DNA from: Lama guanicoe | Taxonomy: Eukaryota | Assembly (NCBI GenBank): GCA_013239625.1 | Contig: MU053561.1 | Span: 374,826-438,825, forward strand | Direction of reading: 5' to 3' | DNA length: 64,000 nt | Part shown: positions 28,679 through 64,000 of the stretch, in pieces | Numbering within the stretch: position 1 is the stretch's first letter | How the letters are laid out: each line of letters starts with the position of its first letter | The notes under the pieces: generated by a model | Databases searched by the model: none | What the model was told of the DNA's origin: nothing | The model's input: only the letters and a program-made list of their open reading frames with translations | Made by a program: the position numbers and the translations under genes

Positions 28679-30067
28679 GAAGAGACGCCTCTGTTTCTTG
28701 CTGCCCGGGAAGGGAGCTATGAAGCAGCCAAGATCCTATTGGACCATTTTGCCAATCGGGACATCACAGACCACATGGACCGTCTTCCCCGGGACGTGGC
28801 TCGGGACCGCATGCACCATGACATCGTGCGCCTCCTGGATGAGTACAATGTGACACCGAGCCCTCCAGGCACTGTGCTGACCTCTGCTCTCTCACCTGTC
28901 ATCTGTGGGCCCAACAGATCTTTTCTCAGTCTGAAGCACACCCCAGTGGGCAAGAAGTCTAGACGGCCCAATGCCAAGAGTGCCGTGCCTACTAGCCTCC
29001 CTAACCTTGCCAAGGAGGCCAAGGATACCAAGGGAAGTAGGAGGAAGAAGTCTCTGAGTGACAAGGGCCAGCTGTCTGAGAGCTCAGTGACTCTGTCCCC
29101 CGTTGATTCCCTAGAATCTCCTCACACATATGTTTCTGATACCACGTCCTCTCCAATGATTACATCCCCCGGAATCTTACAGGCCTCACCCAACCCTATG
29201 TTGGCCCCCGCTGCCCCCGCTGCCCCAGTCCATGCACAGCATGCACTGTCTTTCTCTAACCTTCCTGAGATGCAGCCATTGGCTCATGGGGCCAGCACTG
29301 TGCTTCCCTCAGTGAGCCAGCTGCTGTCCCACCACCACGTTGCTCCCCCAGGCGGCAGCAGTGCGGGGAGCTTGGGTAGGCTGCATTCAGTCCCTGTCCC
29401 AGCAGACTGGATGAACCGCGTGGAGATGAATGAGACCCAGTACAACGAGATGTTTAGTATGGTCCTGGCTCCAGCGGAGGGCGCCCACTCTGGCATAACT
29501 CCCCAGAGCAGGCCACCTGAAGGGAAGCATTTAACCACCCCTCGGGAGTCCTTGCCCCCCATTGTGACTTTCCAGCTAATCCCCAAAGGCAGCATGGCCC
29601 AACCAGCTGGGGCTGCCCAGGCTCCATCCAACTGCCCTCCAGCTGTTGCAGGCACCCTGCCCACCATGTATCAGATTCCAGAAATGGCTCGTTTGCCCGG
29701 TATGGCTTTTTCCACTGCCATGATGCCTCAGCAGGATGGCCAGGTTGCTCAGACCATTCTCCCAGCCTATCACCCCTTTCCAGCCTCTGTGGGCAAGTAT
29801 CCCACACCCCCGTCACAGCATAGCTATGCGTCCTCCAACGCTGCTGAGAGAACGCCCAGCCACAGTGGTCACCTCCAGGGTGAGCATCCCTACCTGACAC
29901 CATCCCCAGAGTCTCCTGACCAGTGGTCAAGTTCATCACCCCACTCTGCTTCTGACTGGTCAGATGTGACCACCAGCCCTACTCCTGGGGGTGCCGGAGG
30001 AGGTCAGCGGGGACCTGGGACACACATGTCGGAGCCACCACGCAGCAACATGCAGGTTTACGCGTGA
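28679..30067 (+). CDS. NOTCH2: NOTCH2 last coding exon (~34): final ankyrin, NLS, TAD, PEST, stop
   Basis: [18 protein letters not shown]...[27 protein letters not shown]...NMQVYA*; C-terminus typical of NOTCH2. Confidence 0.98.
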
Positions 30068-35306: not shown

Positions 35307-37175
35307 ATTCCATGATACAAATTCAGGAAACACAAATCAATGGTAAATAGGGATCTGAATGGTGGGTAGTTTTGTGCGAGAGGGACCTTGACTGAGAGAG
35401 GGCAGGAAAAATCTTCCTGGAGACTGAAAATATATTCACCTGGGTGGTGATTACATGAATGCACTCATACTCAAAATTCCATGTAAAATTTACTTAAGAT
35501 CTTTCAATTTTACTGATGTAAGTTATACTTCAATAAAATGTATCTATAATACTGACAGATGTATAAACACCTAGTAGTATAAAAATAATGTATAGACATA
35601 AAATTTTATATTAGAAAATTATAAAACAATGTTTTATAATATTGCAGGTGCTCAAAAATGAGGTAATATAGGTAAGGCTCCTATATCCCCTCTCTCCATT
35701 CCCTTCCCTTCCTTCCTCCCTCCTTCCTTTTCCAGTTACTTGTTTCCATAAATTGAATTTGTGGAGATTATTTTATGCTTATAAACTTTGTTATTTGCAA
35801 TAGGTGATCCATGAAGCAAACACATTTTCAAATTCAGTGGTATAAAATGTGGGACTGCAGAAATGCAAAATTAATTAGTTAAGTGAGCAAGGCAAGCTAG
35901 CTGTTGCCTAGCTGGGTAGGAGCTCTGGAGTCCACCTGTAGGGTCCTGGCTGCTCTTTGGCACCACCTGGTGGCACTTGGCTGCCTCAGCATAAATATGT
36001 TCGGGTTGAGTCTGGGTTCTAACATCAGACTGGGATTTGCAAGCTCTTCACTGGAAATCATCACCAGCTTCAACATGCCTATTTCAGATGAGAGAGACCA
36101 GCAAACACTGGGATGTAAGGACCCAGCTCCTGCCTCTGTTATGGAACTGGCTCATGTTCTCCATCTCTCTTTCCTTTCTCTCCACCATGACCCCTTTCAT
36201 TCACTCCCAGAAAAGGTTTAAGAACAGTAATTTTCAGAGGATGCACACCAACCAGTAATTGTGTTGTATGAGAATCTAGTTACTGTGGTTATTGCAGGGT
36301 TTTACATTTAAAAACCGGAAATGAGGAAGAGAAGATGTGTTCATCTGAGGGTAACAAGCCTACACACGTGGACAACTCAAGAAAACTTGCTAAAAAGACT
36401 ACCCTAAATCATTAGAAATTTAGTAAACAAAAGAATGGAAAATTTATCAACAAAATCCAATTTGGGGATGTAATTGAGGAGAAAAGCACATTTACATAGC
36501 AAAGATACACCCCCCCCAAAAGATAACACATGGGTAATCCAAAGAAACAACCTTTAAAATAATTACTAAGTGCAAATGTTACCAAATATCCCCCACTCCT
36601 GACTTGTCATTGCTGCTTCTTTATCAAAAAGCTTTAGTTCTGCTCTACTCTTCCCACCTAGTAAAAATCATGAATATCTGACCATGCCTGTAACTTTGAT
36701 AAAATTCATTAAGATACTCAATTTTTTAACCTGCCTCAACATCATCAAACACAAGTACAAGTCCCATAATAAGCCCTCCCTAACACTCACTTACTGAGAC
36801 ACCACATCTCCCCTTAGTGTGCAACGTTCCCTGCAGCAAAAAGCATCAATAAATCCATCTTTGTTTGACTTGCCAGGGTGCTCCTGGTGGTTTGACTGAG
36901 GGACGTCAACAGAGCCTGTGCTGACACTCGGAGAGAGGAAGGATCCCCCGTAACACCTGTCATACACGCGGCCTGACTGTCACAATGACAGTTAATGAAC
37001 TTTTCAAGAATACCTGGAACGTTCATAAAGATGGTACATATATGAAGCCATCATAAATCTTAGTGTAGCTTCCAGAATCAGTATCATATAGAGAGTTATC
37101 TCTGTACAGAGGACTATCAAATTAGAAACAAAAGTCAAAATCTAACCAACATCCCTGCACATTTGAAAAAAAATT
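35307..37175 (+). repeat. Segmental duplication block A, copy 1 (paralog at 52223-54091)
   Basis: Direct by-eye alignment; ORFs 36037-36258 and 52971-53192 translate identically. Confidence 0.95.
36577..36911 (+). mobile_element. ERV LTR-like remnant, duplicated at ~53511-53845
   Basis: TG...CA ends; AATAAA at ~36848 followed by a U5-like ctttgtttgact...tcctggtggtttgactgaggga...aca. Confidence 0.5.
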
Positions 37176-42964: not shown

Positions 42965-43222
42965 TTTTGAATTTGGCAAAAGGAGGTTGTGGTCACTTCA
43001 GTGTGAACTTTTCTAGGAAATGCATAGGAGACACATGCCAGAGGGCTGTGACATGAATGGCAGATGAGGAAGAAAGATCACAGATCTAGACCACATCTTC
43101 AAGAAGTTGGGTGTGAAACAGAGAAAAGAAACAGGAAAGTCGCTGGAGGGTTCTATGTGGTAGAAAGAGGGTTTGTTAGAATGAAAGGGTCCTGGCCATT
43201 CTCAAGTGCTGTTAGGAAAACT
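42965..43222 (-). repeat. Left arm of imperfect inverted repeat (partner 44194-44449)
   Basis: Reverse-complement alignment; homologous ORFs MRKKDHRSRPHLQEVGCE (+) and MRKEDHRSRSHLQEAGCE (-). Confidence 0.93.
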
Positions 43223-44100
43223 CCCAGCAGATATCCCTGCTCAGCCTCCAAGAGAGGATAGGGGATCCCTTCAAAGGGATCCTCCTCAAGGATCAGCAAA
43301 GGAGGAGGCCTGTGCACTGTGGAGATGACCCGGTTGGCAGGCAGGGGAAGCTGTGAGTGTAGTGAGTAGACAGTCAGGGAGGGCAGGTCTGAAGTCTCAG
43401 TTTTCCTGTAAAGTCAGGGGCTGAGGTGAGGGCGTGGAAAGAGTGAGAGAGATGAAGGGGAGAACTCAGGAGAGAGCTGACTAGGGACAAATGGAAGCAT
43501 CACCAAGTGTGCTGAGCTCCTAGTTCAGGTTGGAAACCAGAAATGACAGTTTCCCCCAGTCTGTAAATCTGGTAGATTTTCTCAAGCACCCAGCAGCCTA
43601 AACTGGGGAGGGTAGTTGGAATCTATCTTTTGTATCCATTTGATTTTATCGTTTTCAAATCTATACCATTTTCTTTAGGCCACTGGAGGATTTCTTGATG
43701 AAAAACTCCTAATTCATCATCTAATTCATCAACTCCTATTGCTACAATATTGTCTGTGGGCTAAACTCTGTAGCATCTGTTTGATAACACAAAGCCTTGT
43801 GGAAATAGCCTGCTTTGACATAGTTCTTCTTATTTACAAAAATGATATTGTAAAAGGTGGGAATAACTCTTAGTTCCATAGAGTAGAAGATGCAAGCTTC
43901 CTTATCCTCAACCTGCATATGTCTCCAGTAAACTCCTCCCAACCCCCAGACAGAACTCTCAATGTTTCTCCACCTGTTGATACGCCATTAAAATACAGAA
44001 AGTATGTTGTATTTTAAAATAGCATATACTATTCATGTATTTTTGACACTGCTATTTTCACAATATATTTACTGCTAATTTTACACAACATATTGTAAAT
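43200..44100 (-). repeat. Duplication block B, inverted relative to 61190-62098
   Basis: e.g. tgtctgtgggctaaactctgtagcatctgtttgataacac is the reverse complement of 61507-61546. Confidence 0.95.
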
Positions 44101-44129
44101 TATTTTCTAAGTCATTGTTTTTTTAACGA

Positions 44130-44137
44130 CTTTTGTT

Positions 44138-44182
<45 letters not shown>
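44130..44182. repeat. (GTT)n microsatellite
   Basis: About 14 tandem GTT units. Confidence 0.97.
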
Positions 44183-44193
44183 TGGTCTCCTAT

Positions 44194-44449
44194 GGGTTTT
44201 CCTACCAGCAATTGAGAATGGCCAGGACCCTTCCATTCTAACAAACCCTTTTTCTACCACACAGAACCCTTTAGCGACTTTCCTGTTTCTTCCCTCTCTT
44301 TCACACCCAGCTTCTTGAAGATGCGATCTAGATCTGTGATCTTCCTTCCTCATCCACCATTCACATCACAACCTTCTGGCATGTGTCTCTTCAGCATTTC
44401 CCGGAACAGTTCAACCTAAAGGGACCACGACTGCCTTTTGCTGAATTCA
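44194..44449 (+). repeat. Right arm of inverted repeat, part of the ADAM30 upstream region
   Basis: Reverse complement of 42965-43222 with scattered mismatches. Confidence 0.93.
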
Positions 44450-44859
44450 GCGTTTCTCCACTTTGCTCACCAGTTCATCCGTTGACCACGGGCGCTGCCC
44501 TGGGAGGCTGGGGAGGCAGAGCCTCCTCTGATTTTCTCACACTCATGCTCCTCCTTCCTTCCACTGTAAGCCAGCCCACCAGGAAACTGGGGATGGCTGG
44601 ATGACGTGGGCTCAGAGTGCTATTAAGCATCCGAGTCAACCGATGCAAACATCATGTGTGCCCGAGGGCCGCTAGAAAGAGAGTAAAAGGCACACGATAC
44701 ACTGAGCTTTTTATTTTTTTTTAAACAAGTTCTCTTTTGTTCCTCCCCTTCTTTATTCCGTCTGTTTTGCTCACGCCACTCTCTGCCCTTCTCCTTCCCT
44801 CCTGCAAAGAGCCTCGTTCTGCAAAGAGCTTTTCATTCTCTTCTCGCTCCTTCCCTGGA

Positions 44860-45330
44860 TCCTTCCACGTGCGCCTAACGGCCCCTCTCGGAAGAACTAC
44901 ATGCGTTGGACACGGGGGCGCGCACCTGTCGTTCGCCTGTTGTGAAAATCGGCTGCGCTGAGCCGGACCCAGCTCAGGCCAAGGCGGGCGCCCCCACACC
45001 CCGCGCTCGGGGAGCCCGGCGTCCCTGCAAGTCCGACCCGCAAGGCCACCGTTGCAGGGGCTGACTCGCCAGCGAACAGGCGATGCCATGAGGTCAGGGA
45101 GGCCCTTCCTCTCCCACGGCCGTTCGCTCCCGGTGCTGCTCCTGGCGCTGCTGCTGGCTGACTGTGTTGGCAAGGATCCAGTTTTCCACCCGGAGTGGGG
45201 CTTTGATTCCTATGAAGTCACCATCCCCAAGAAGCTGAGCTTCCGACGAGAGCAGCAGGGTGTGGCCAAGCACGTGTCCTACCTCCTGCAGGTAAAAGGC
45301 AAGAACCGCGTCCTCCACCTGTGGCCCAAG
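44860..45330 (+). promoter_or_regulatory. CpG-rich promoter/5' region of ADAM30 copy 1
   Basis: Dense CpG and high GC around the ATG compared with CpG-depleted flanks. Confidence 0.75.
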
Positions 45331-47241
45331 AGGTTTCTGTTAGCCCGAACTCTGCAGGTTTTCTCCTTCACGGAGCAGGGGCAGCTCTGGGAGGATCACC
45401 CTTATGTACCCAGCGACTGCAACTACATGGGCTTGGTTGAAGGAAATCAGGATTCCGAGGCTACTTTAAGCACATGCACGGGGGCGCTCCGAGGCATATT
45501 GCAAATCGATGCCAGGCATTATCAAATCGAGCCCCTCAGGGCTTCTTCCACGTTTGAACATGTGGTGTATCTCCTGAAGAAAGAGCAGGAATTTCCTAGT
45601 CACATCTGTGGCTTAAGTCATGACGACACAGTAAAGCAGATGGCCCAGCAGGAGAACGTGGCTAGGATAAGCGACCTCACTGAGTCTTACATGCACCAGA
45701 AGTACTTGGAATTAGCCCTGGTCTTCGATCACAGTAGGTATTTGTACCTGAACTCCAATCTTACTCTAGTCGTGAATGACGCCATTCTTCTGACTGCGAT
45801 CGCAGACTCTTACTTTCAAGATGTCCGTATGAGAATACATCTATTTGGTGTGGAAGTATGGACAGATGAAAACAAAATAAAAGTGACTTTTTCAAAGTTA
45901 GACCAAGTTTTAGGCCAATTTATGGTATACAGAACAAGTGTACTAAATGCTCGATTTCCGGTAGATTGGGTACATCTATACATTAAACAAACTTACACAG
46001 ATTTTCTTGCACAATCCTGGGGAACTGTGTGTAGTACGTTTTATGCTGGATCTGCAAGTGTTTTTCTAGATATGAATGTCCTCACACCTGCCACTTGGAC
46101 TGCTCATGTATTGGGCCATAGTGTGGGAATGAACCATGATGCAGAATATTGCCAGTGTAAGGGTAGGCACAATTGCATCATGGGCACTGGACGAACTGGG
46201 TTTAGTAATTGTAGTTATGCTGAGTTTTTTGCACACGTCTATTCAGGAGCAAAGTGTCTAACTAATATCCCAGGACTAGGCTTTGTGGTTAAGAGATGTG
46301 GGAACAAAATTGTGGAAGAGGATGAGGAATGTGACTGCGGTTCAGGAGAGGACTGTAAAACAGACCAGTGTTGTCAACCAGATTGTAAATTCAAACAAGG
46401 TGCCAATTGTAGCACTGGACTTTGCTGTCATAACTGTCACTTTCGTCCATCTGGGTACATGTGTCGGAAGGAGGAAAATGAATGTGACCTCGCAGAGTAC
46501 TGCAGTGGGACCTCAGGACTCTGCCCAAGTGACACTTACAAGCAGGATGGAACCCCTTGCAAGTACGAAGCCCGTTGTGTCAAAAAGGGCTGCCAGGCCA
46601 GATATATGCAGTGCCAAAGCATTTTTGGACCTGATGCCAGGGAGGCTCCTCTTCAGTGCTATGATGTCCTTAATGTAATAGGTGACCAGTATGGGAACTG
46701 TGGTGCTTCAGGAGTCCGTGAATATCGGAAGTGTACCAGGAAAAATATATTATGTGGCAGGATACAGTGTATAAATGTCAACACCATCCCTGATATGCCA
46801 GATCATACTCTTCTAATTTCCACTCATCTGCAGGAGGAAAACCTCATGTGCTGGGGCATAGGCTACCATTTGTCCATGGTAGCTATGGGGATACCTGACC
46901 TGGGAGTGGTAAATGATGGGACCTCCTGTGGTACGGACAAGATATGTTTTAATAGAAATTGCGTGAATAGCTCAGTCCTGAAGTTTGACTGTTTGCCTGA
47001 CAAGTGCAACCACCGAGGCGTTTGCAACAATAAGAAAAACTGCCACTGCATGTATGGCTGGGCCCCTCCCTTCTGTGAGGAGGTAGGGTATGGAGGAAGC
47101 ATTGACAGTGGGCCACCGGGACCTCTAAAACAGGGGGTGCCCACCTCAATTCAGGTCGTGTCCCTTTCGTTAGTACGCCTTATTTTGTTAATTATCTCAG
47201 TGATTGTTGTGTTTTTCAGGAAAATCTTAGGAAACGTATAA
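45088..47241 (+). CDS. ADAM30: ADAM30-like protein, copy 1 (intronless, 717 aa): signal peptide, prodomain, metalloprotease-like domain with HVxxH, disintegrin, Cys-rich, EGF, TM; cytoplasmic tail truncated
   Basis: Single ORF with full ADAM architecture (CGNKIVEEDEECDCG, ECDLAEYC, GYGGSIDSGP); position directly 3' of NOTCH2 on the same strand matches known ADAM30 synteny. Confidence 0.93.
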   Translation: MRSGRPFLSHGRSLPVLLLALLLADCVGKDPVFHPEWGFDSYEVTIPKKLSFRREQQGVAKHVSYLLQVKGKNRVLHLWPKRFLLARTLQVFSFTEQGQLWEDHPYVPSDCNYMGLVEGNQDSEATLSTCTGALRGILQIDARHYQIEPLRASSTFEHVVYLLKKEQEFPSHICGLSHDDTVKQMAQQENVARISDLTESYMHQKYLELALVFDHSRYLYLNSNLTLVVNDAILLTAIADSYFQDVRMRIHLFGVEVWTDENKIKVTFSKLDQVLGQFMVYRTSVLNARFPVDWVHLYIKQTYTDFLAQSWGTVCSTFYAGSASVFLDMNVLTPATWTAHVLGHSVGMNHDAEYCQCKGRHNCIMGTGRTGFSNCSYAEFFAHVYSGAKCLTNIPGLGFVVKRCGNKIVEEDEECDCGSGEDCKTDQCCQPDCKFKQGANCSTGLCCHNCHFRPSGYMCRKEENECDLAEYCSGTSGLCPSDTYKQDGTPCKYEARCVKKGCQARYMQCQSIFGPDAREAPLQCYDVLNVIGDQYGNCGASGVREYRKCTRKNILCGRIQCINVNTIPDMPDHTLLISTHLQEENLMCWGIGYHLSMVAMGIPDLGVVNDGTSCGTDKICFNRNCVNSSVLKFDCLPDKCNHRGVCNNKKNCHCMYGWAPPFCEEVGYGGSIDSGPPGPLKQGVPTSIQVVSLSLVRLILLIISVIVVFFRKILGNV

Positions 47242-47447
47242 ACCCAAAGAGAAAGAAACACCACGAATTAACACTGGAGTAGAATAATTCAAGGCAAAAA
47301 ATGTCAAGAAACCAAAAAATAATCAGGCAATGCACAGTCACTCTGTAACCCAGGGTCATAAACTGAATGAGGTTCTCATTTATCCTAACAGCTCTTCCTT
47401 CTTCCCTCAATTCTTTAATTGAATTTTCTTTGAGGTTTTGATCAGCA

Positions 47448-52220: not shown

Positions 52221-52222
52221 AA

Positions 52223-54091
52223 TTCCACGATATAAGTTCAGGAAACACAAATCAATGGTAAACAGGGATCTGAATGGTGAGTAGTTTTGTGCGAGAGGGA
52301 CCTTGACTGAGAAGAGGGCAAGAAAAATCTTTCTGGACACTGAAAATATCTTCACCTGGGTGGTGATTTCATGAATGTATTCATACTCAAAATTCCATGT
52401 AAAATTTACTTAAGATCTTCCAATTTTACTAACATAAGTTATATTTCAATAAAATGTATCTATAATACTGACAGATGTATAAAAACCTAATAGTATAAAA
52501 TTAAAATATACAGTTATACATAATTTTATGTTACAGAATTTAAAACATTAGTGTTTTATTATATTTGTTTCAGATAATTCGAAGATAATGCAGTAAGACT
52601 CTTTAACCATCTCTATTCCATTCCCCTCCCTTTCCTTCCTCCCTTTTTCCTTTTCCAGTTACTTGTTTCCATAAATTGAATCTGTGGAGATTATTTTATG
52701 CTTAAAAACTTTGTTATTTGCAATAGGTGATCCATGAAGCAAACACATTTTCAAATTCAGTGGTATGAAATGTGGGACTGCAGAAATGCAAAGTTAATTA
52801 AGTGAGCAAGGCGAAGCAGCTGTTGCCTAGCTGGGTAGGAGCTCTGGAGTCCAGTTGGAAAACCCGTACCTGTGGGGTCCTGGCTGCTCTTTGGCACCAC
52901 CTGGTGGCACCTGGCTGCCTCAGCATAAATATGTTGGGGTTGAGTCTGGGTTCTGTCATCAGACTGGGATTTGCAAGCTCTTCACTGGAAATCATCACCA
53001 GCTTCAACATGCCTATTTCAGATGAGAGAGACCAGCAAACACTGGGATGTAAGGACCCAGCTCCTGCCTCTGTTATGGAACTGGCTCATGTTCTCCATCT
53101 CTCTTTCCTTTCTCTCCACCATGACCCCTTTCATTCACTCCCAGAAAAGGTTTAAGAACAGTAATTTTCAGAGGATGCACACCAACCAGTAATCATGTTA
53201 TATCAGAATCTAGTTACTGTGGTTATTGCAGGGTTTTACATTTGAGAACCGGAAATGAGGAAGAGAAGGTGTGTTCATCTGAGGGTAACAAGACTACACA
53301 CCTGGACAACCCAAGAAAACTTGCTAAAAAGACTACCCTAAATCATTAGAAATTTAGTAAACAAAAGAATGGAAAATTTATCAACAAAATCCAATTTGGG
53401 GATGTAATTGAGGAGAAAAGCACATTTACATAGCAAAGATACACCCCCCCCAAAAGATAACACATGGGTAATCCAAAGAAACAACCTTTAAAATAATTAC
53501 TAAGTGCAAATGTTACCAAATATCCCCCACTCCTGACTTGTCATTGCTGCTTCTTTATCAAAAAGCTTTAGTTCTGCTCTACTCTTCCCACCTAGTAAAA
53601 ATCATGAATATCTGACCATGCCTGTAACTTTGATAAAATTCATTAAGATACTCAATTTTTTAACCTGCCTCAACATCATCAAACACAAGTACAAGTCCCA
53701 TAATAAGCCCTCCCTAACACTCACTTACTGAGACACCACATCTCCCCTTAGTGTGCAACGTTCCTTGCAGCAAACAGCATTGATAAATCCATCTTTGTTT
53801 GACTTACTGGGGTGCTCCTGGTGGTTTGACTGAGGGATGTCAACAGAGCCTGTGCTGACACTCGGAGAGAGGAAGGATCCCCCTGTAACACCTGTCATAC
53901 ACGCGGCCTGACTGTCACAATGACAGTCAATGAACTTTTCATAAAGATGGTACATATATGAAGCCATCATAAATCTTAGTGTAGCTTCCAGAATCATTAT
54001 CATACAGAGAGTTATCTCTGTACAGAGGACTATGAAATTAGAAACAAAAGTCAAAATCTAGCCAACACCACCGTACATGTGAAAAAAATTT
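52223..54091 (+). repeat. Segmental duplication block A, copy 2
   Basis: Same sequence as 35307-37175, offset ~16.9 kb. Confidence 0.95.
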
Positions 54092-60810: not shown

Positions 60811-61189
60811 TACAGAGTTTATGGTGATTTTTAAAGAGCTCAGTCAATCTGAGTACTTGCTTTCTCTTTGGCCTAACAATTTCAATTCTAGGAACCCATC
60901 AGAAGAGGCAAAAAATATGTGTGTGTATACATGTATATACACGAATGTGTACACGTGTATATTTACATATAAATACATAAGTTCTTTAATACATATATAT
61001 GTATATGTATTGCCATAATATAAAATACTTGTCAAAAAGAAAAATGTAGAAATTTGAAGCAATACTATTGTATCGTCATCCATCCATAAAGGAAATAGTT
61101 AAATAAATGATTATGTGAATACTATAATCTGAATATAGTATCTGTTATGGGCAATAATCTACATCTGATATTAACAACGACCTAGAAAA

Positions 61190-62098
61190 TTATTTACAAT
61201 GTATTATGTACTGAAAAGTAGCAGTGTCAAAAGTATATGAACAGGATGTACTATTTTAAAATATGGCATACTTTCCATATTTTAATGGCATATGAACAGG
61301 TGGAGAAACATACATAAGAGCTCTTTCTGGGGGTTGGGAGGAGCTTACTGGAGACATATGCAGGTTAAGGATAAAGGAAGCTTGCATCTTCTACTCTATG
61401 GAACTAAGAGTTATTTCCATTTTTTATAATATATATTCACCTTTTACAATATCATTTTTGTAAATAAGAAGAACTATGTCAAAGCAGGCTATTTCCACAA
61501 GGCTTTGTGTTATCAAACAGATGCTACAGAGTTTAGCCCACAGACAATACTGTAGCAACAAGAGTTGATGAATTAGATGATGAATTAGGAGTTTTTCATC
61601 AAGAAATTCTCCAGTGGCCTAAAGAAAATGGTATAAATTTGAAAACGATGATAAAATCAAATGGATACAAAAGATAGATTCCAACTACCCTCCCCAGTTT
61701 AGGCTGCTGGGTGCTTGAGAAAATCTACCAGATTTACAGACTGGGGGAAACTGTCATTTCTGGTTTCCAACCTGAACTAGGAGCTCAGCACACTTGGTGA
61801 TGCTTCCATTTGTCCCTAGTCAGCTCTCTCCTGAGTTCTCCTCTTCATCTCCCTCACCCTTACCACGCCCTCACCTCAGCCCCTGACTTTACAGGAAAAC
61901 TGAGACTTCAGACCTGCCCTCCCTGACTGTCTACTCACTACACTCACAGCTTCCCCTGCCTGCCAACCGGGTCATCTCCACAGTGCACAGGCCTCCTGGT
62001 CTGCTTATCCCTGAGGGGGGCCCCTTTGAGGGGATCCTCTGTCCTCTCCCGGAGGCTGGGCAGGGCTGTCTGCTGGGGCTTTCCCACCAGTACATGAG
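61190..62098 (+). repeat. Duplication block B, copy upstream of the second ADAM30
   Basis: Reverse complement of 43200-44100, with a near-identical core and more diverged ends. Confidence 0.95.
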
Positions 62099-63469
62099 AC
62101 AGACACCTTAAAATTTCCACCTCCTGGGAAGAACTTCTCATATTTCTTCCCTTCACGAGAGTCAACTTCTTTTGCTATTTTCTCCTTCCCCGTGTGACTG
62201 GACCATGATACAGAAGCCAAAAACGTGAATATTCTTTTTGATTCTTACTTCTCTCCTGCTGGAAGAATCCATTCAATCGTTAAGTCCAGCAGAGTCTGCT
62301 TTATTCATATTTTTTGAAGATGTCCACTTGTGTCCTTCCCCAGAGGGTAACAGAGGTGACTGGTAAGGAGGCTCCAGGAGGGAAGTGCCTAAATGTGTGT
62401 GGCAATGGTGTCACCTAGCATCACCATCGAGTGCAAATACAGTTTCAGTCTCCTTGTGTGTGAACTATGGAAGATAATCATAGAGTTACCATCCTCTGCA
62501 AAATAGGGTTCTTGCGAAGACTTAATGGGCTGATTCACGCAGAGAGCCTGGAAGAGTGGCTGGCACACAGTAAGCCTTCCATAAACACTGAATTTTATGA
62601 GCTCCAATGCCATTATTTCTGGCCCACTGACAACATCGCTTGACTGGATTGTTACATGAAGTTAACTGGTCTCCCTGATTCAGGCCTGGTCCTTTTTAAA
62701 CCTTTCCCTGTAATGCAGACGTAATTAATTCCCTAAGAACATAATTGAAAATGTTCCTTTTGAGTCAAAAGTTCTCAACAAAATCATAAGACCCTGTAAT
62801 TTATGGATTCCACAGACAACTAGTTCTTTTATATTCTGAGCAGGGATCTTGGATGGAGCTTTGCAGTCTCCTCTCTCAGCCATCACTCATACTAGAAACA
62901 TATATAAACTCTTCACCTTGCTCTGAAAGCTCCTGGGTTTTGCTCTTTTCACGGATATTTTACTCTTTCTAGATTCTTCCACCACTGCACACCCACACCA
63001 GAAAATCACGCTGATCCCTGGCAACCCAAGGACACAGAGCAGAAAGAACCACCTGACCAAATGAAACTTTCCCTTGCCTGAAGCCAGGCGCTGCCCGGGG
63101 GGCGGGTGGGGATATGAGTCTGCACTGATTTTCAGTTCCGGCGCTACCCATGCCGGCTCCTGTGCGCCTTCCCTTTGCTGCAAGCACCGCAGCTGAAAAC
63201 GGAATGGTGGAATGGAAAGGTGGGCACAGTGGCCTATGAATCACCTGATTCAATCAATGAAAAACCATCAGGTGTGCCCGAGGGCCTCTAGAAACAGACT
63301 AAAGGGCACAAAATACAGCGAGTTTTTTTTTTTTAAACAAGTTCTCTTTTGTTCCTCCCCTTCTTTATTCCGTCTGTTTTGCTCACGCCACTCTCTGCCC
63401 TTCTCCTTCCCTCCTGCAAAGAGCCTCGTTCTGCAAAGAGCTTTTCATTCTCTTCTCGCTCCTTCCCTG

Positions 63470-63940
63470 GATCCTTCCACGTGCGCCTAACGGCCCCTCT
63501 CGGAAGAACTACATGCGTTGGACACGGGGGCGCGCACCTGTCGTTCGCCTGTTGTGAAAATCGGCTGCGCTGAGCCGGACCCAGCTCAGGCCAAGGCGGG
63601 CGCCCCCACACCCCGCGCTCGGGGAGCCCGGCGTCCCTGCAAGTCCGACCCGCAAGGCCACCGTTGCAGGGGCTGACTCGCCAGCGAACAGGCGATGCCA
63701 TGAGGTCAGGGAGGCCCTTCCTCTCCCACGGCCGTTCGCTCCCGGTGCTGCTCCTGGCGCTGCTGCTGGCTGACTGTGTTGGCAAGGATCCAGTTTTCCA
63801 CCCGGAGTGGGGCTTTGATTCCTATGAAGTCACCATCCCCAAGAAGCTGAGCTTCCGACGAGAGCAGCAGGGTGTGGCCAAGCACGTGTCCTACCTCCTG
63901 CAGGTAAAAGGCAAGAACCGCGTCCTCCACCTGTGGCCCA
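63470..63940 (+). promoter_or_regulatory. CpG-rich promoter/5' region of ADAM30 copy 2
   Basis: Identical to the copy-1 CpG-rich region. Confidence 0.75.
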
Positions 63941-64000
63941 AGAGGTTTCTGTTAGCCCGAACTCTGCAGGTTTTCTCCTTCACGGAGCAGGGGCAGCTCT
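63700..64000 (+). CDS. ADAM30: ADAM30-like protein, copy 2 (5' part only; runs off the window)
   Basis: MRSGRPFLSHGRSLPVLLLALLLADCVGKDPVFHPEWGFDSYEVTIPKK..., identical to 45088-45388. Confidence 0.9.
   Translation, partial: MRSGRPFLSHGRSLPVLLLALLLADCVGKDPVFHPEWGFDSYEVTIPKKLSFRREQQGVAKHVSYLLQVKGKNRVLHLWPKRFLLARTLQVFSFTEQGQL

What the first reader, a model, noticed from the sequence alone, without database searches (positions are those of the whole stretch)
44450..45388. Sharp identity step between ADAM30 paralogs, suggesting a gene-conversion tract over promoter and 5' CDS
Seen: 44714-45388 and 63326-64000 show no difference by eye over ~675 bp, including CpG-rich non-coding sequence. Just upstream, 44490-44713 vs 63085-63325 is alignable but heavily diverged (e.g. 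gtgggctcagagtgctattaagcatccgagtcaacc vs gtgggcacagtggcctatgaatcacctgattcaatc). The step falls at a poly-T run. Inference: an old duplication with recent or ongoing interlocus gene conversion.
Basis: partly seen in the sequence, partly recalled or inferred. Interest (0 to 1): 0.72.

Follow-up and report, generated by a model that had tools for sequence, protein, structure and literature searches.

The report
Mosaic gene conversion between ADAM30 copies
Two old neighbouring copies of a camelid protease gene, one with an intact cutting site and one without, keep overwriting each other's promoter and front end while two short stretches stay very different; the process is well known, but the same pattern recurs in this gene in many mammals and seems undescribed.

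Summary
Confirmed: 44714-45388 and 63326-64000 are identical over 675 bp (the right end is only the window edge); the flank upstream is 76% identical. The window holds a tandem ADAM30 pair of a South American camelid (inferred). The full proteins are a mosaic: 0 differences in aa 1-252 and 386-493, but 33/78 in a metalloprotease island (253-330) and 26/61 in a cysteine-rich island (494-554). Copy 2 keeps the catalytic Glu, copy 1 has Val. Seven N-terminal residues are shared by both window copies and differ from both Camelus paralogs, while the islands group by paralog: recurrent interlocus gene conversion on an old duplication, probably as old as artiodactyls (not firmly shown). Two more patchy tracts lie upstream. 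The same pattern (near-identical prodomain, divergent protease core) appears in 21 of 25 within-species ADAM30 pairs from about 10 mammal lineages, including a parallel active/dead pair in bats. No read-level test was obtained, so polishing could have turned about 99% into 100%. Whether selection or mere divergence protects the islands is open. Known mechanism, new case. The scan's notes showed no ADAM30 case on other DNA.

The parts
35307..37175 (+). Upstream tract T1, paralogous to 52222-54091; patchy identity (88-90% at the 5' edge, identical runs of 453 bp at 36378-36830 and 237 bp at 36023-36259)
   Evidence: 0 of 10,000 permutations reach the 453-bp run
52222..54091 (+). Partner of T1, about 11.5 kb upstream of copy 2
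42968..43231 (-). Left arm of a 264-bp inverted repeat (86%) with 44186-44449 that brackets T2 in unit 1; no match in unit 2
43195..44122 (-). Upstream tract T2, inverted relative to its partner 61170-62104; core 43303-43900 98% identical (10 substitutions in 598), edges about 79-82%
61170..62104 (+). Partner of T2 upstream of copy 2
44186..44449 (+). Right arm of the inverted repeat
44483..44713 (+). Old, unconverted paralogous flank (76% identical to 63079-63325)
63079..63325 (+). Old flank of copy 2
44714..45087 (+). Non-coding part of the identical tract: starts in a poly-T run; CpG-island-like presumed promoter and 5' UTR (transcription start not determined)
45088..47241 (+). ADAM30 copy 1, one uninterrupted ORF, 717 aa (P0001): propeptide, metalloprotease, disintegrin, ADAM_CR, transmembrane
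45088..45843 (+). Codons 1-252, homogenised: DNA-identical to copy 2 up to 45388, protein-identical throughout; holds the 7 residues shared by both window copies but not Camelus
45844..46068 (+). Island 1 (aa 253-327), core of the upper metalloprotease subdomain; 33 of 75 residues differ; GC3 0.23
46108..46110 (+). Codon 341: Val in copy 1, catalytic Glu in copy 2; the only difference in aa 328-384
46069..46566 (+). Codons 328-493, homogenised (zinc-binding helix, lower subdomain, disintegrin); 2 differences
46567..46749 (+). Island 2 (aa 494-554), first half of the cysteine-rich domain; 26 of 61 differ
46750..47163 (+). Codons 555-692, homogenised; 3 of 138 differ
47164..47241 (+). Transmembrane helix and short tail, small third island; 7 of 25 differ
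63326..64000 (+). Identical tract in copy 2; ATG at 63700, the gene runs off the window.

Best explanation
An old tandem duplication of ADAM30 (older than the Camelus / South American camelid split: shown; probably at or before the artiodactyl radiation: inferred) whose two copies, 18.6 kb apart, still exchange DNA by recurrent interlocus gene conversion. Conversion keeps the CpG-rich promoter region, signal peptide, prodomain, disintegrin and most of the C-terminal ectodomain the same, and has done so separately in both camelid branches since they split (shown from shared lineage-specific residues). Two islands and the catalytic codon stay different. Most likely conversion there is removed by selection, because it would erase the difference between an active protease (copy 2) and a non-catalytic binder (copy 1), and accumulated divergence now also blocks pairing (inferred).
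For: 675/675 identity beside 76%. Mosaic protein profile. 7 residues in aa 27-172, plus H642, shared by both window copies and different in all 3 Camelus rows used; by outgroups about 5 are derived on the window's branch and 1 on the Camelus branch; 3 of them (codons 27, 74, 88) lie inside the DNA-identical tract. 22 camelid-only residues shared by all 5 camelid rows fall in homogenised segments (556 aa), 0 in islands (161 aa). Segment trees and AU tests. In the islands copy 1 shares 20 derived residues with a pig/hippo/ruminant type, copy 2 only 2. GC3 is lower in islands than in homogenised segments, 53/161 vs 311/556, p 3e-7; island 1 vs aa 555-692, far from the CpG island, p 3e-6. Two more patchy tracts. 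The island-1 border has moved in C. ferus/bactrianus copy 2, which carries copy-1 residues at 253-255. Same pattern in 21 of 25 testable within-species pairs; in bats the protease domains group by paralog across families (100/100) and the prodomains by genus or species.
Against: No read-level confirmation and no DNA for copy 2 beyond 64000, so synonymous sites and the 3' tract end are unseen. A camelid-only duplication is not firmly rejected on the islands (AU p 0.19 both islands, 0.046 island 2; 0.073 island 1). Island 1 is also among the fastest parts between orthologs (1.2-2.6 times the prodomain in 13 of 14 comparisons, 7 times in one), which favours escape without paralog-specific selection. 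The lower subdomain and the C-terminal half of ADAM_CR, which PMC4885070 links to substrate recognition, are homogenised in camelids, against a simple specificity reading. The GC contrast has no single-copy control, and at four-fold sites islands vs downstream homogenised segments give only p 0.09. Post-split conversion is not shown for aa 328-493, where orthologs barely differ. Four pairs do not fit (elephant, bilby, tree shrew, African wild dog).
Confidence: 0.87

Rival explanations
1. Assembly collapse or mis-polishing made the two 5' ends identical.
For: Exact identity with no variant; no read-level test obtained. An older C. bactrianus model of copy 2 (P0099) has copy 1's Val341, which may be a chimeric assembly. 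A collapse in every assembly would also make the segment group by species.
Against: Reads cross-map only if the copies are already nearly identical; unconverted copies of this age would differ at about a fifth of N-terminal residues (camelid vs hippo 57/252, vs pig 58/252). C. bactrianus copies differ at 1 of 252, so are not merged; hippo, fox, vampire bat and others show the same in separate assemblies. At most this changes how recent the last event is.
Confidence: 0.04
2. Conversion is real, but the islands are neutral: the fastest-evolving stretches crossed the identity threshold first and have been locked out of conversion since. This competes only with the selection step of the best explanation.
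For: Island 1 is fast among single-copy orthologs too. PMC3924837 states that substitutions and indels end concerted evolution. The non-coding flank also escaped with no obvious function. Glu341 is lost in all sampled non-camelid artiodactyl rows, so Val341 may be a later independent change.
Against: Island 1 of copy 1 is unchanged between the window and C. bactrianus (0/78, against 7/252 upstream). A one-codon Glu/Val difference persists in both camelid branches with camelid-only shared residues 8 codons away on each side (T333, N349). An active/dead pair recurs in bats.
Confidence: 0.35
3. Unequal crossing-over (duplication and loss of chimeric genes), not conversion, homogenised the segments.
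For: Ruminants have three types, and type c joins the protease island of type b to part of the cysteine-rich island of type a, so chimeras do arise here.
Against: Three homogenised coding blocks alternate with three islands, and three non-coding tracts of different identity (88-100%) lie in otherwise unalignable spacers, one of them inverted. Two types are seen in each of three camelid assemblies with both. This needs many double crossovers, which sequence cannot tell from conversion.
Confidence: 0.06
4. Recent separate duplications in each camelid branch, with fast change in the islands.
For: Explains species grouping of most of the protein.
Against: Islands are nearly identical between orthologous copies across genera (0/78 and 2/78) and 33/78 apart between paralogs; AU p 2e-52; flank only 76% identical; spacers not alignable.
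Confidence: 0.01

Closest known systems
Long-lived mosaic concerted evolution in mammalian gene pairs BMP8A/B, DDX19A/B, TUBG1/2 (PMC2720389, passages seen)
   Same: Neighbouring pair; some segments group by species and others by paralog; higher GC3 in concerted segments; boundaries similar across species.
   Different: ADAM30 is not in that paper's main text (0 hits for 'ADAM'; supplements not read). Its screen needed two exons plus an intron in human pairs, whereas this ORF is uninterrupted. Here islands lie inside one exon, and the pair differs at the catalytic residue.
Peaks of divergence under conversion: primate red/green opsin exon 5 (PMC3924837, passages seen; it cites RHCE/RHD and protocadherins)
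   Same: Tandem genes about 20 kb apart, homogenised except at short peaks that may hold functional differences.
   Different: In opsins the key residues are validated and introns are the converted part. Here the island residues are untested, and the homogenised part includes promoter and prodomain.
ADAM30 (human protein studied in PMC4972530, passages seen)
   Same: Domain order and 60-79% identity to mammalian ADAM30; copy 2 has the full zinc motif that the paper reports to be needed for activity.
   Different: Two copies; copy 1 lacks the catalytic Glu; tail of only a few residues. That human has a single copy is recalled, not checked.

Membership tests
Interlocus gene conversion / mosaic concerted evolution | Paralogs closer than orthologs in the segment, sharing lineage-specific changes | tested here: met
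   0/252 between window copies, 7/252 to Camelus; AU rejects paralog clades, p 0.0095 and 0.0032. Protein level except for the 675 bp.
Interlocus gene conversion / mosaic concerted evolution | Neighbouring segments show the duplication is older than the species split | tested here: met
   Islands group by paralog across camelid genera, 100/99 and 100/100; window-copies clade rejected, p 2e-52.
Interlocus gene conversion / mosaic concerted evolution | Raised GC3 in concerted segments | tested here: met
   Copy 1: 0.56 vs 0.33, p 3e-7. No single-copy ortholog DNA as control; the 5' part overlaps a CpG island.
Interlocus gene conversion / mosaic concerted evolution | Stable copy number (conversion rather than unequal crossover) | tested here: inconclusive
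   Two types in the window's assembly, C. bactrianus and C. dromedarius; DNA beyond the window unseen; ruminants show three types.
Interlocus gene conversion / mosaic concerted evolution | Identity is in the molecules, not only in the assembly | tested here: inconclusive
   Indirect only. 14 of 24 listed runs hold 92-95% of sampled words of copy 1, which says nothing on copy 2.
Interlocus gene conversion / mosaic concerted evolution | Non-reciprocal transfer; polymorphisms shared between loci | not testable with these tools
   Needs phased population haplotypes or sperm typing.
Selection-maintained peak of divergence (opsin type) | Local divergence peak between homogenised flanks | tested here: met
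   33/75 and 26/61 between blocks with 0-3 differences.
Selection-maintained peak of divergence (opsin type) | The peak holds sites that change function | tested here: inconclusive
   Codon 341 is the catalytic base by motif (PMC4885070 section 3.1) but lies outside island 1; island residues mapped only to secondary structure.
Selection-maintained peak of divergence (opsin type) | Synonymous divergence also peaks; neutral escape rejected by model | not testable with these tools
   No DNA for copy 2 beyond codon 100.
ADAM30 | Propeptide, reprolysin, disintegrin, ADAM_CR, transmembrane; nearest named relatives ADAM30 | tested here: met
Catalytically competent ADAM | HEXXHXXGXXH motif with Glu | tested here: not met
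   Not met for copy 1 (Val341); met for copy 2 (P0095). Activity not assayed.

The most novel reading that the evidence does not exclude
ADAM30 works in many mammals as a two-gene enzyme / pseudo-enzyme module. A conversion hotspot at the CpG-rich promoter keeps promoter, signal peptide and prodomain of the partners interchangeable, locking their co-expression and maturation, while selection preserves a few ancient 'cassettes' in the protease core, some older than the split of bats and artiodactyls (camelid copy 2 groups weakly with the active bat clade: 88 SH-aLRT, 66/76; artiodactyl monophyly on island 1 rejected at p 0.035). The islands would then be a natural map of the residues that set ADAM30 partners.
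Probability: 0.2. Interest if true: 0.68.

Novelty: new member of a known kind. Interest (0 to 1): 0.45.

Why it matters
It is a clean, long-lived case of mosaic concerted evolution with what look like repeated trials across mammals, useful for testing whether divergence islands are kept by selection or by drift past a pairing threshold. It points to two short regions and one codon as the likely functional difference in a poorly understood protease. It also warns that ADAM30 gene trees, orthology calls and selection scans are misleading in artiodactyls, bats and canids: whole-gene trees would show false recent duplications. Among the artiodactyl ADAM30s sampled here, only camelid copy 2 keeps the catalytic Glu.

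Tried and rejected
DNA of relatives: the metagenome scan gave 10 loci from 101 pattern matches, best-segment identity 25-39% for nine and 56% over 31 residues for one; none is ADAM30 and none was used. Sigma-70 promoter and terminator scan: not suited to a mammal, ignored. Tandem repeats: nothing at the boundary; a (TTG)n array at 44133-44181. Sensitive searches found no homology between the two spacers beyond T1, T2, the flank and dispersed repeats. Dating from the flank (JC 0.29; 57-95 My with recalled rates) is given little weight: the alignment is gappy and has 20 transitions to 33 transversions. Which outside lineage copy 2 belongs to is unresolved: island 2 joins it to the whale/hippo/ruminant b type (95/91), island 1 weakly to active bat copies. 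The model's disintegrin and cysteine-rich parts have pLDDT mostly under 50, so island 2 was not mapped on structure. Two MYB-like and one E-box hexamer in the tract were not tested against chance and are not used. Pfam found nothing in the 28775 ORF. Literature: ADAM30 + gene conversion gave 2 unrelated papers; ADAM + concerted evolution + prodomain + gene conversion 0; ADAM30 + copies + bovine + tandem 0; listings showed no title on ADAM30 paralogs. One search was badly framed (its 15 listed papers had no ADAM30 hit) and does not test ADAM30 in camelids. The library lacks most subscription journals, and no supplements were read.

Full report
Observation. The window aligns to itself at 44483-45388 vs 63079-64000. 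The last 675 bases are identical and stop only at the window edge. The flank upstream has 170 matches to 53 mismatches; 675 matches at that rate has a chance near 1e-80, and none of 10,000 permutations came near. The step begins in a poly-T run that differs in length between the copies, after a short shoulder of higher identity. The tract holds 374 non-coding bases (60% GC, CpG o/e 0.93) and the first 100 codons.

What the genes are. The ORF 45088-47241 encodes 717 aa with propeptide, reprolysin, disintegrin and ADAM_CR domains; the 93 proteins returned at E 1e-200 are, where named, ADAM30 or unnamed products. Its 90% cluster has 7 members: five named Camelus proteins and two unnamed ones on a contig of the same length, P0001 and P0095. 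I take P0095 as the product of copy 2 (ATG at 63700); this is inference, since the DNA past 64000 was not available. P0001 differs from its C. bactrianus counterpart at 13 residues, so the window is most likely from a South American camelid (inference). The two camelid branches split about 11-25 My ago (PMC13751797, passages).

The mosaic. P0001 and P0095 differ at 0 of aa 1-252, 33 of 78 in 253-330, 2 in 331-400, 0 in 401-493, 26 of 61 in 494-554, 3 of 138 in 555-692 and 7 of 25 in 693-717. The C. bactrianus pair has the same profile (1, 29, 1, 1, 25, 1, 7). Seven residues in aa 27-172 and one at 642 are shared by both window copies and differ in all three Camelus rows; outgroups suggest about five arose on the window's branch and one on the Camelus branch. 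So exchange went on separately in both branches after they split. All 22 camelid-only residues shared by the five camelid rows lie in homogenised segments, none in the islands. Trees of 23 rows agree: homogenised segments group by genus and reject paralog clades (AU p 0.0095, 0.0032); islands group by paralog and reject a window-copies clade (p 2e-52). With recalled rates of 1.5-2.5e-9 per site per year, zero differences bound the last homogenisation of the tract at under about 0.9-2.2 My, if the identity is real to the base.

Age of the duplication. In the islands, copy 1 groups with pig, peccary, one hippo copy and ruminant type a (83/96; 96 SH-aLRT on island 1), sharing 20 derived residues with them against 2 for copy 2. 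This points to a duplication at or before the artiodactyl radiation. It is not proven: a camelid-only clade is rejected only marginally or not at all (p 0.19, 0.046, 0.073), and the flank clock (57-95 My) rests on a poor alignment.

More tracts. 35307-37175 vs 52222-54091 runs from about 88% at one edge to identical stretches of 237 and 453 bp. 43195-44122 matches 61170-62104 inverted, 98% in the core and about 80% at the edges, and is bracketed in unit 1 by a 264-bp inverted repeat. The rest of the spacers does not align. These AT-rich tracts show that exchange is not confined to the promoter.

GC content. In copy 1, GC3 is 0.56 in homogenised segments and 0.33 in islands (p 3e-7); island 1 alone is 0.23. 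PMC2720389 (passages) uses this as a mark of biased conversion. There is no single-copy control here, and four-fold sites give only p 0.09 against the downstream segments.

What the islands are. In the AlphaFold model of P0095 (metalloprotease domain pLDDT mostly 72-97; it matches ADAM8 and ADAM33 domains at rmsd 2.0-2.2) island 1 covers the end of strand 248-257, helix 271-289 and strands 294-299, 308-311 and 321-325. That strand 308-311 is the edge strand lining the cleft is my recall of metzincin topology, not a measurement. Island 2 is the first half of ADAM_CR, in a low-confidence part of the model. Against a simple specificity story, the lower subdomain and the later half of ADAM_CR, which PMC4885070 (passages and section 3.1) links to substrate recognition, are homogenised. 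Codon 341, the catalytic base by motif, is Val in copy 1 and Glu in copy 2 in both camelid branches and is the only difference in aa 328-384. An older C. bactrianus model of copy 2 has Val there (allele or chimera). Human ADAM30 needs its catalytic site for its reported effects (PMC4972530, passages).

Other mammals. I compared 26 within-species pairs (21, 5 more); one lacks an N-terminus. Of the other 25, 21 differ at 11% or less of aa 30-180 and at 33% or more of aa 253-327 (thresholds set after seeing the data; one mole pair has only 50 N-terminal residues). They come from about ten lineages: camelids, hippo, ruminants, vesper bats, leaf-nosed bats, canids, golden mole, mole, wombat, echidna, and are not independent within them. 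Elephant, bilby, tree shrew and African wild dog do not fit. Among 14 ortholog comparisons island 1 is 1.2-2.6 times as diverged as the prodomain in 13 and 7 times in one, so part of the contrast is intrinsic. In bats, a Glu-bearing and an Asn-bearing copy group by paralog across families in aa 200-400 (100/100; vesper-bat monophyly rejected, p 5e-58) while prodomains group by genus or species. Tandem position in those species is inferred from shared contig lengths and adjacent accession numbers.

Mechanism. Shown: old duplication, lineage-wise homogenisation, stable islands. Inferred: conversion rather than crossover; selection against conversion in the islands, helped by divergence itself (framework in PMC3924837, passages); a promoter-side hotspot as the reason the 5' end is the most consistently homogenised part. 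Assembly error cannot make the high similarity but could hide a few differences; no read-level test was obtained.

Novelty. The process is textbook. I found no paper on ADAM30 paralogs or their conversion (listings and abstract starts only, apart from PMC3849967, whose passages mention Adam30 once and conversion not at all). The library lacks most subscription journals and I read no supplements. The scan's notes held two findings on this same window and no ADAM30 case elsewhere. Verdict: new member of a known kind, interest 0.45.

Noticed in passing
window 42968-44449: About 1 kb upstream of copy 1 is inverted relative to unit 2 and bracketed by a 264-bp inverted repeat (86%), with a (TTG)n array at 44133-44181; it looks like a local inversion with duplicated ends. 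Its core is still 98% identical to unit 2.
   Followed up: partly
window 36114-36955 and 53048-53890: An element of about 840 bp inside tract T1 starts with TG, ends with CA and has a poly-A-signal-like site, as a solo LTR would (recalled features, no library test). Present at the same place in both units.
   Followed up: partly
window 28775-30067 (+): 430-aa ORF that reads like the last exon of NOTCH2 (recalled; Pfam gave no hit), consistent with the usual position of ADAM30 beside NOTCH2.
   Followed up: no
window 47230-47290: Copy 1 stops a few residues after the membrane helix; the DNA after the stop still reads like the short tails of pig, hippo and cattle ADAM30. All six full-length camelid proteins end at 717 aa, and several whale, hippo and ruminant copies are cut similarly.
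   Followed up: partly
P0114, P0115, P0116, P0119, P0120, P0126 (ruminant type c): Ruminants carry a third, chimeric type: protease island of type b, first half of the cysteine-rich island of type a, and its own transmembrane region.
   Followed up: partly
P0094 and P0099, aa 253-261 and 341: C. ferus / C. bactrianus copy 2 has copy-1 residues at 253-255, unlike dromedary and the window: the island border has been eroded. The older model P0099 also has Val341.
   Followed up: partly
P0002, P0058, P0096: Gene models from sheep and dromedary assemblies splice pieces of neighbouring ADAM30 copies together or skip the protease island; probably annotation errors caused by the repeats.
   Followed up: no
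Talpa P0053, Condylura P0065: On island 1, mole ADAM30s group with the whale/hippo/ruminant b type (95; inside a 100/100 group). Either an old shared paralog or long-branch attraction.
   Followed up: partly
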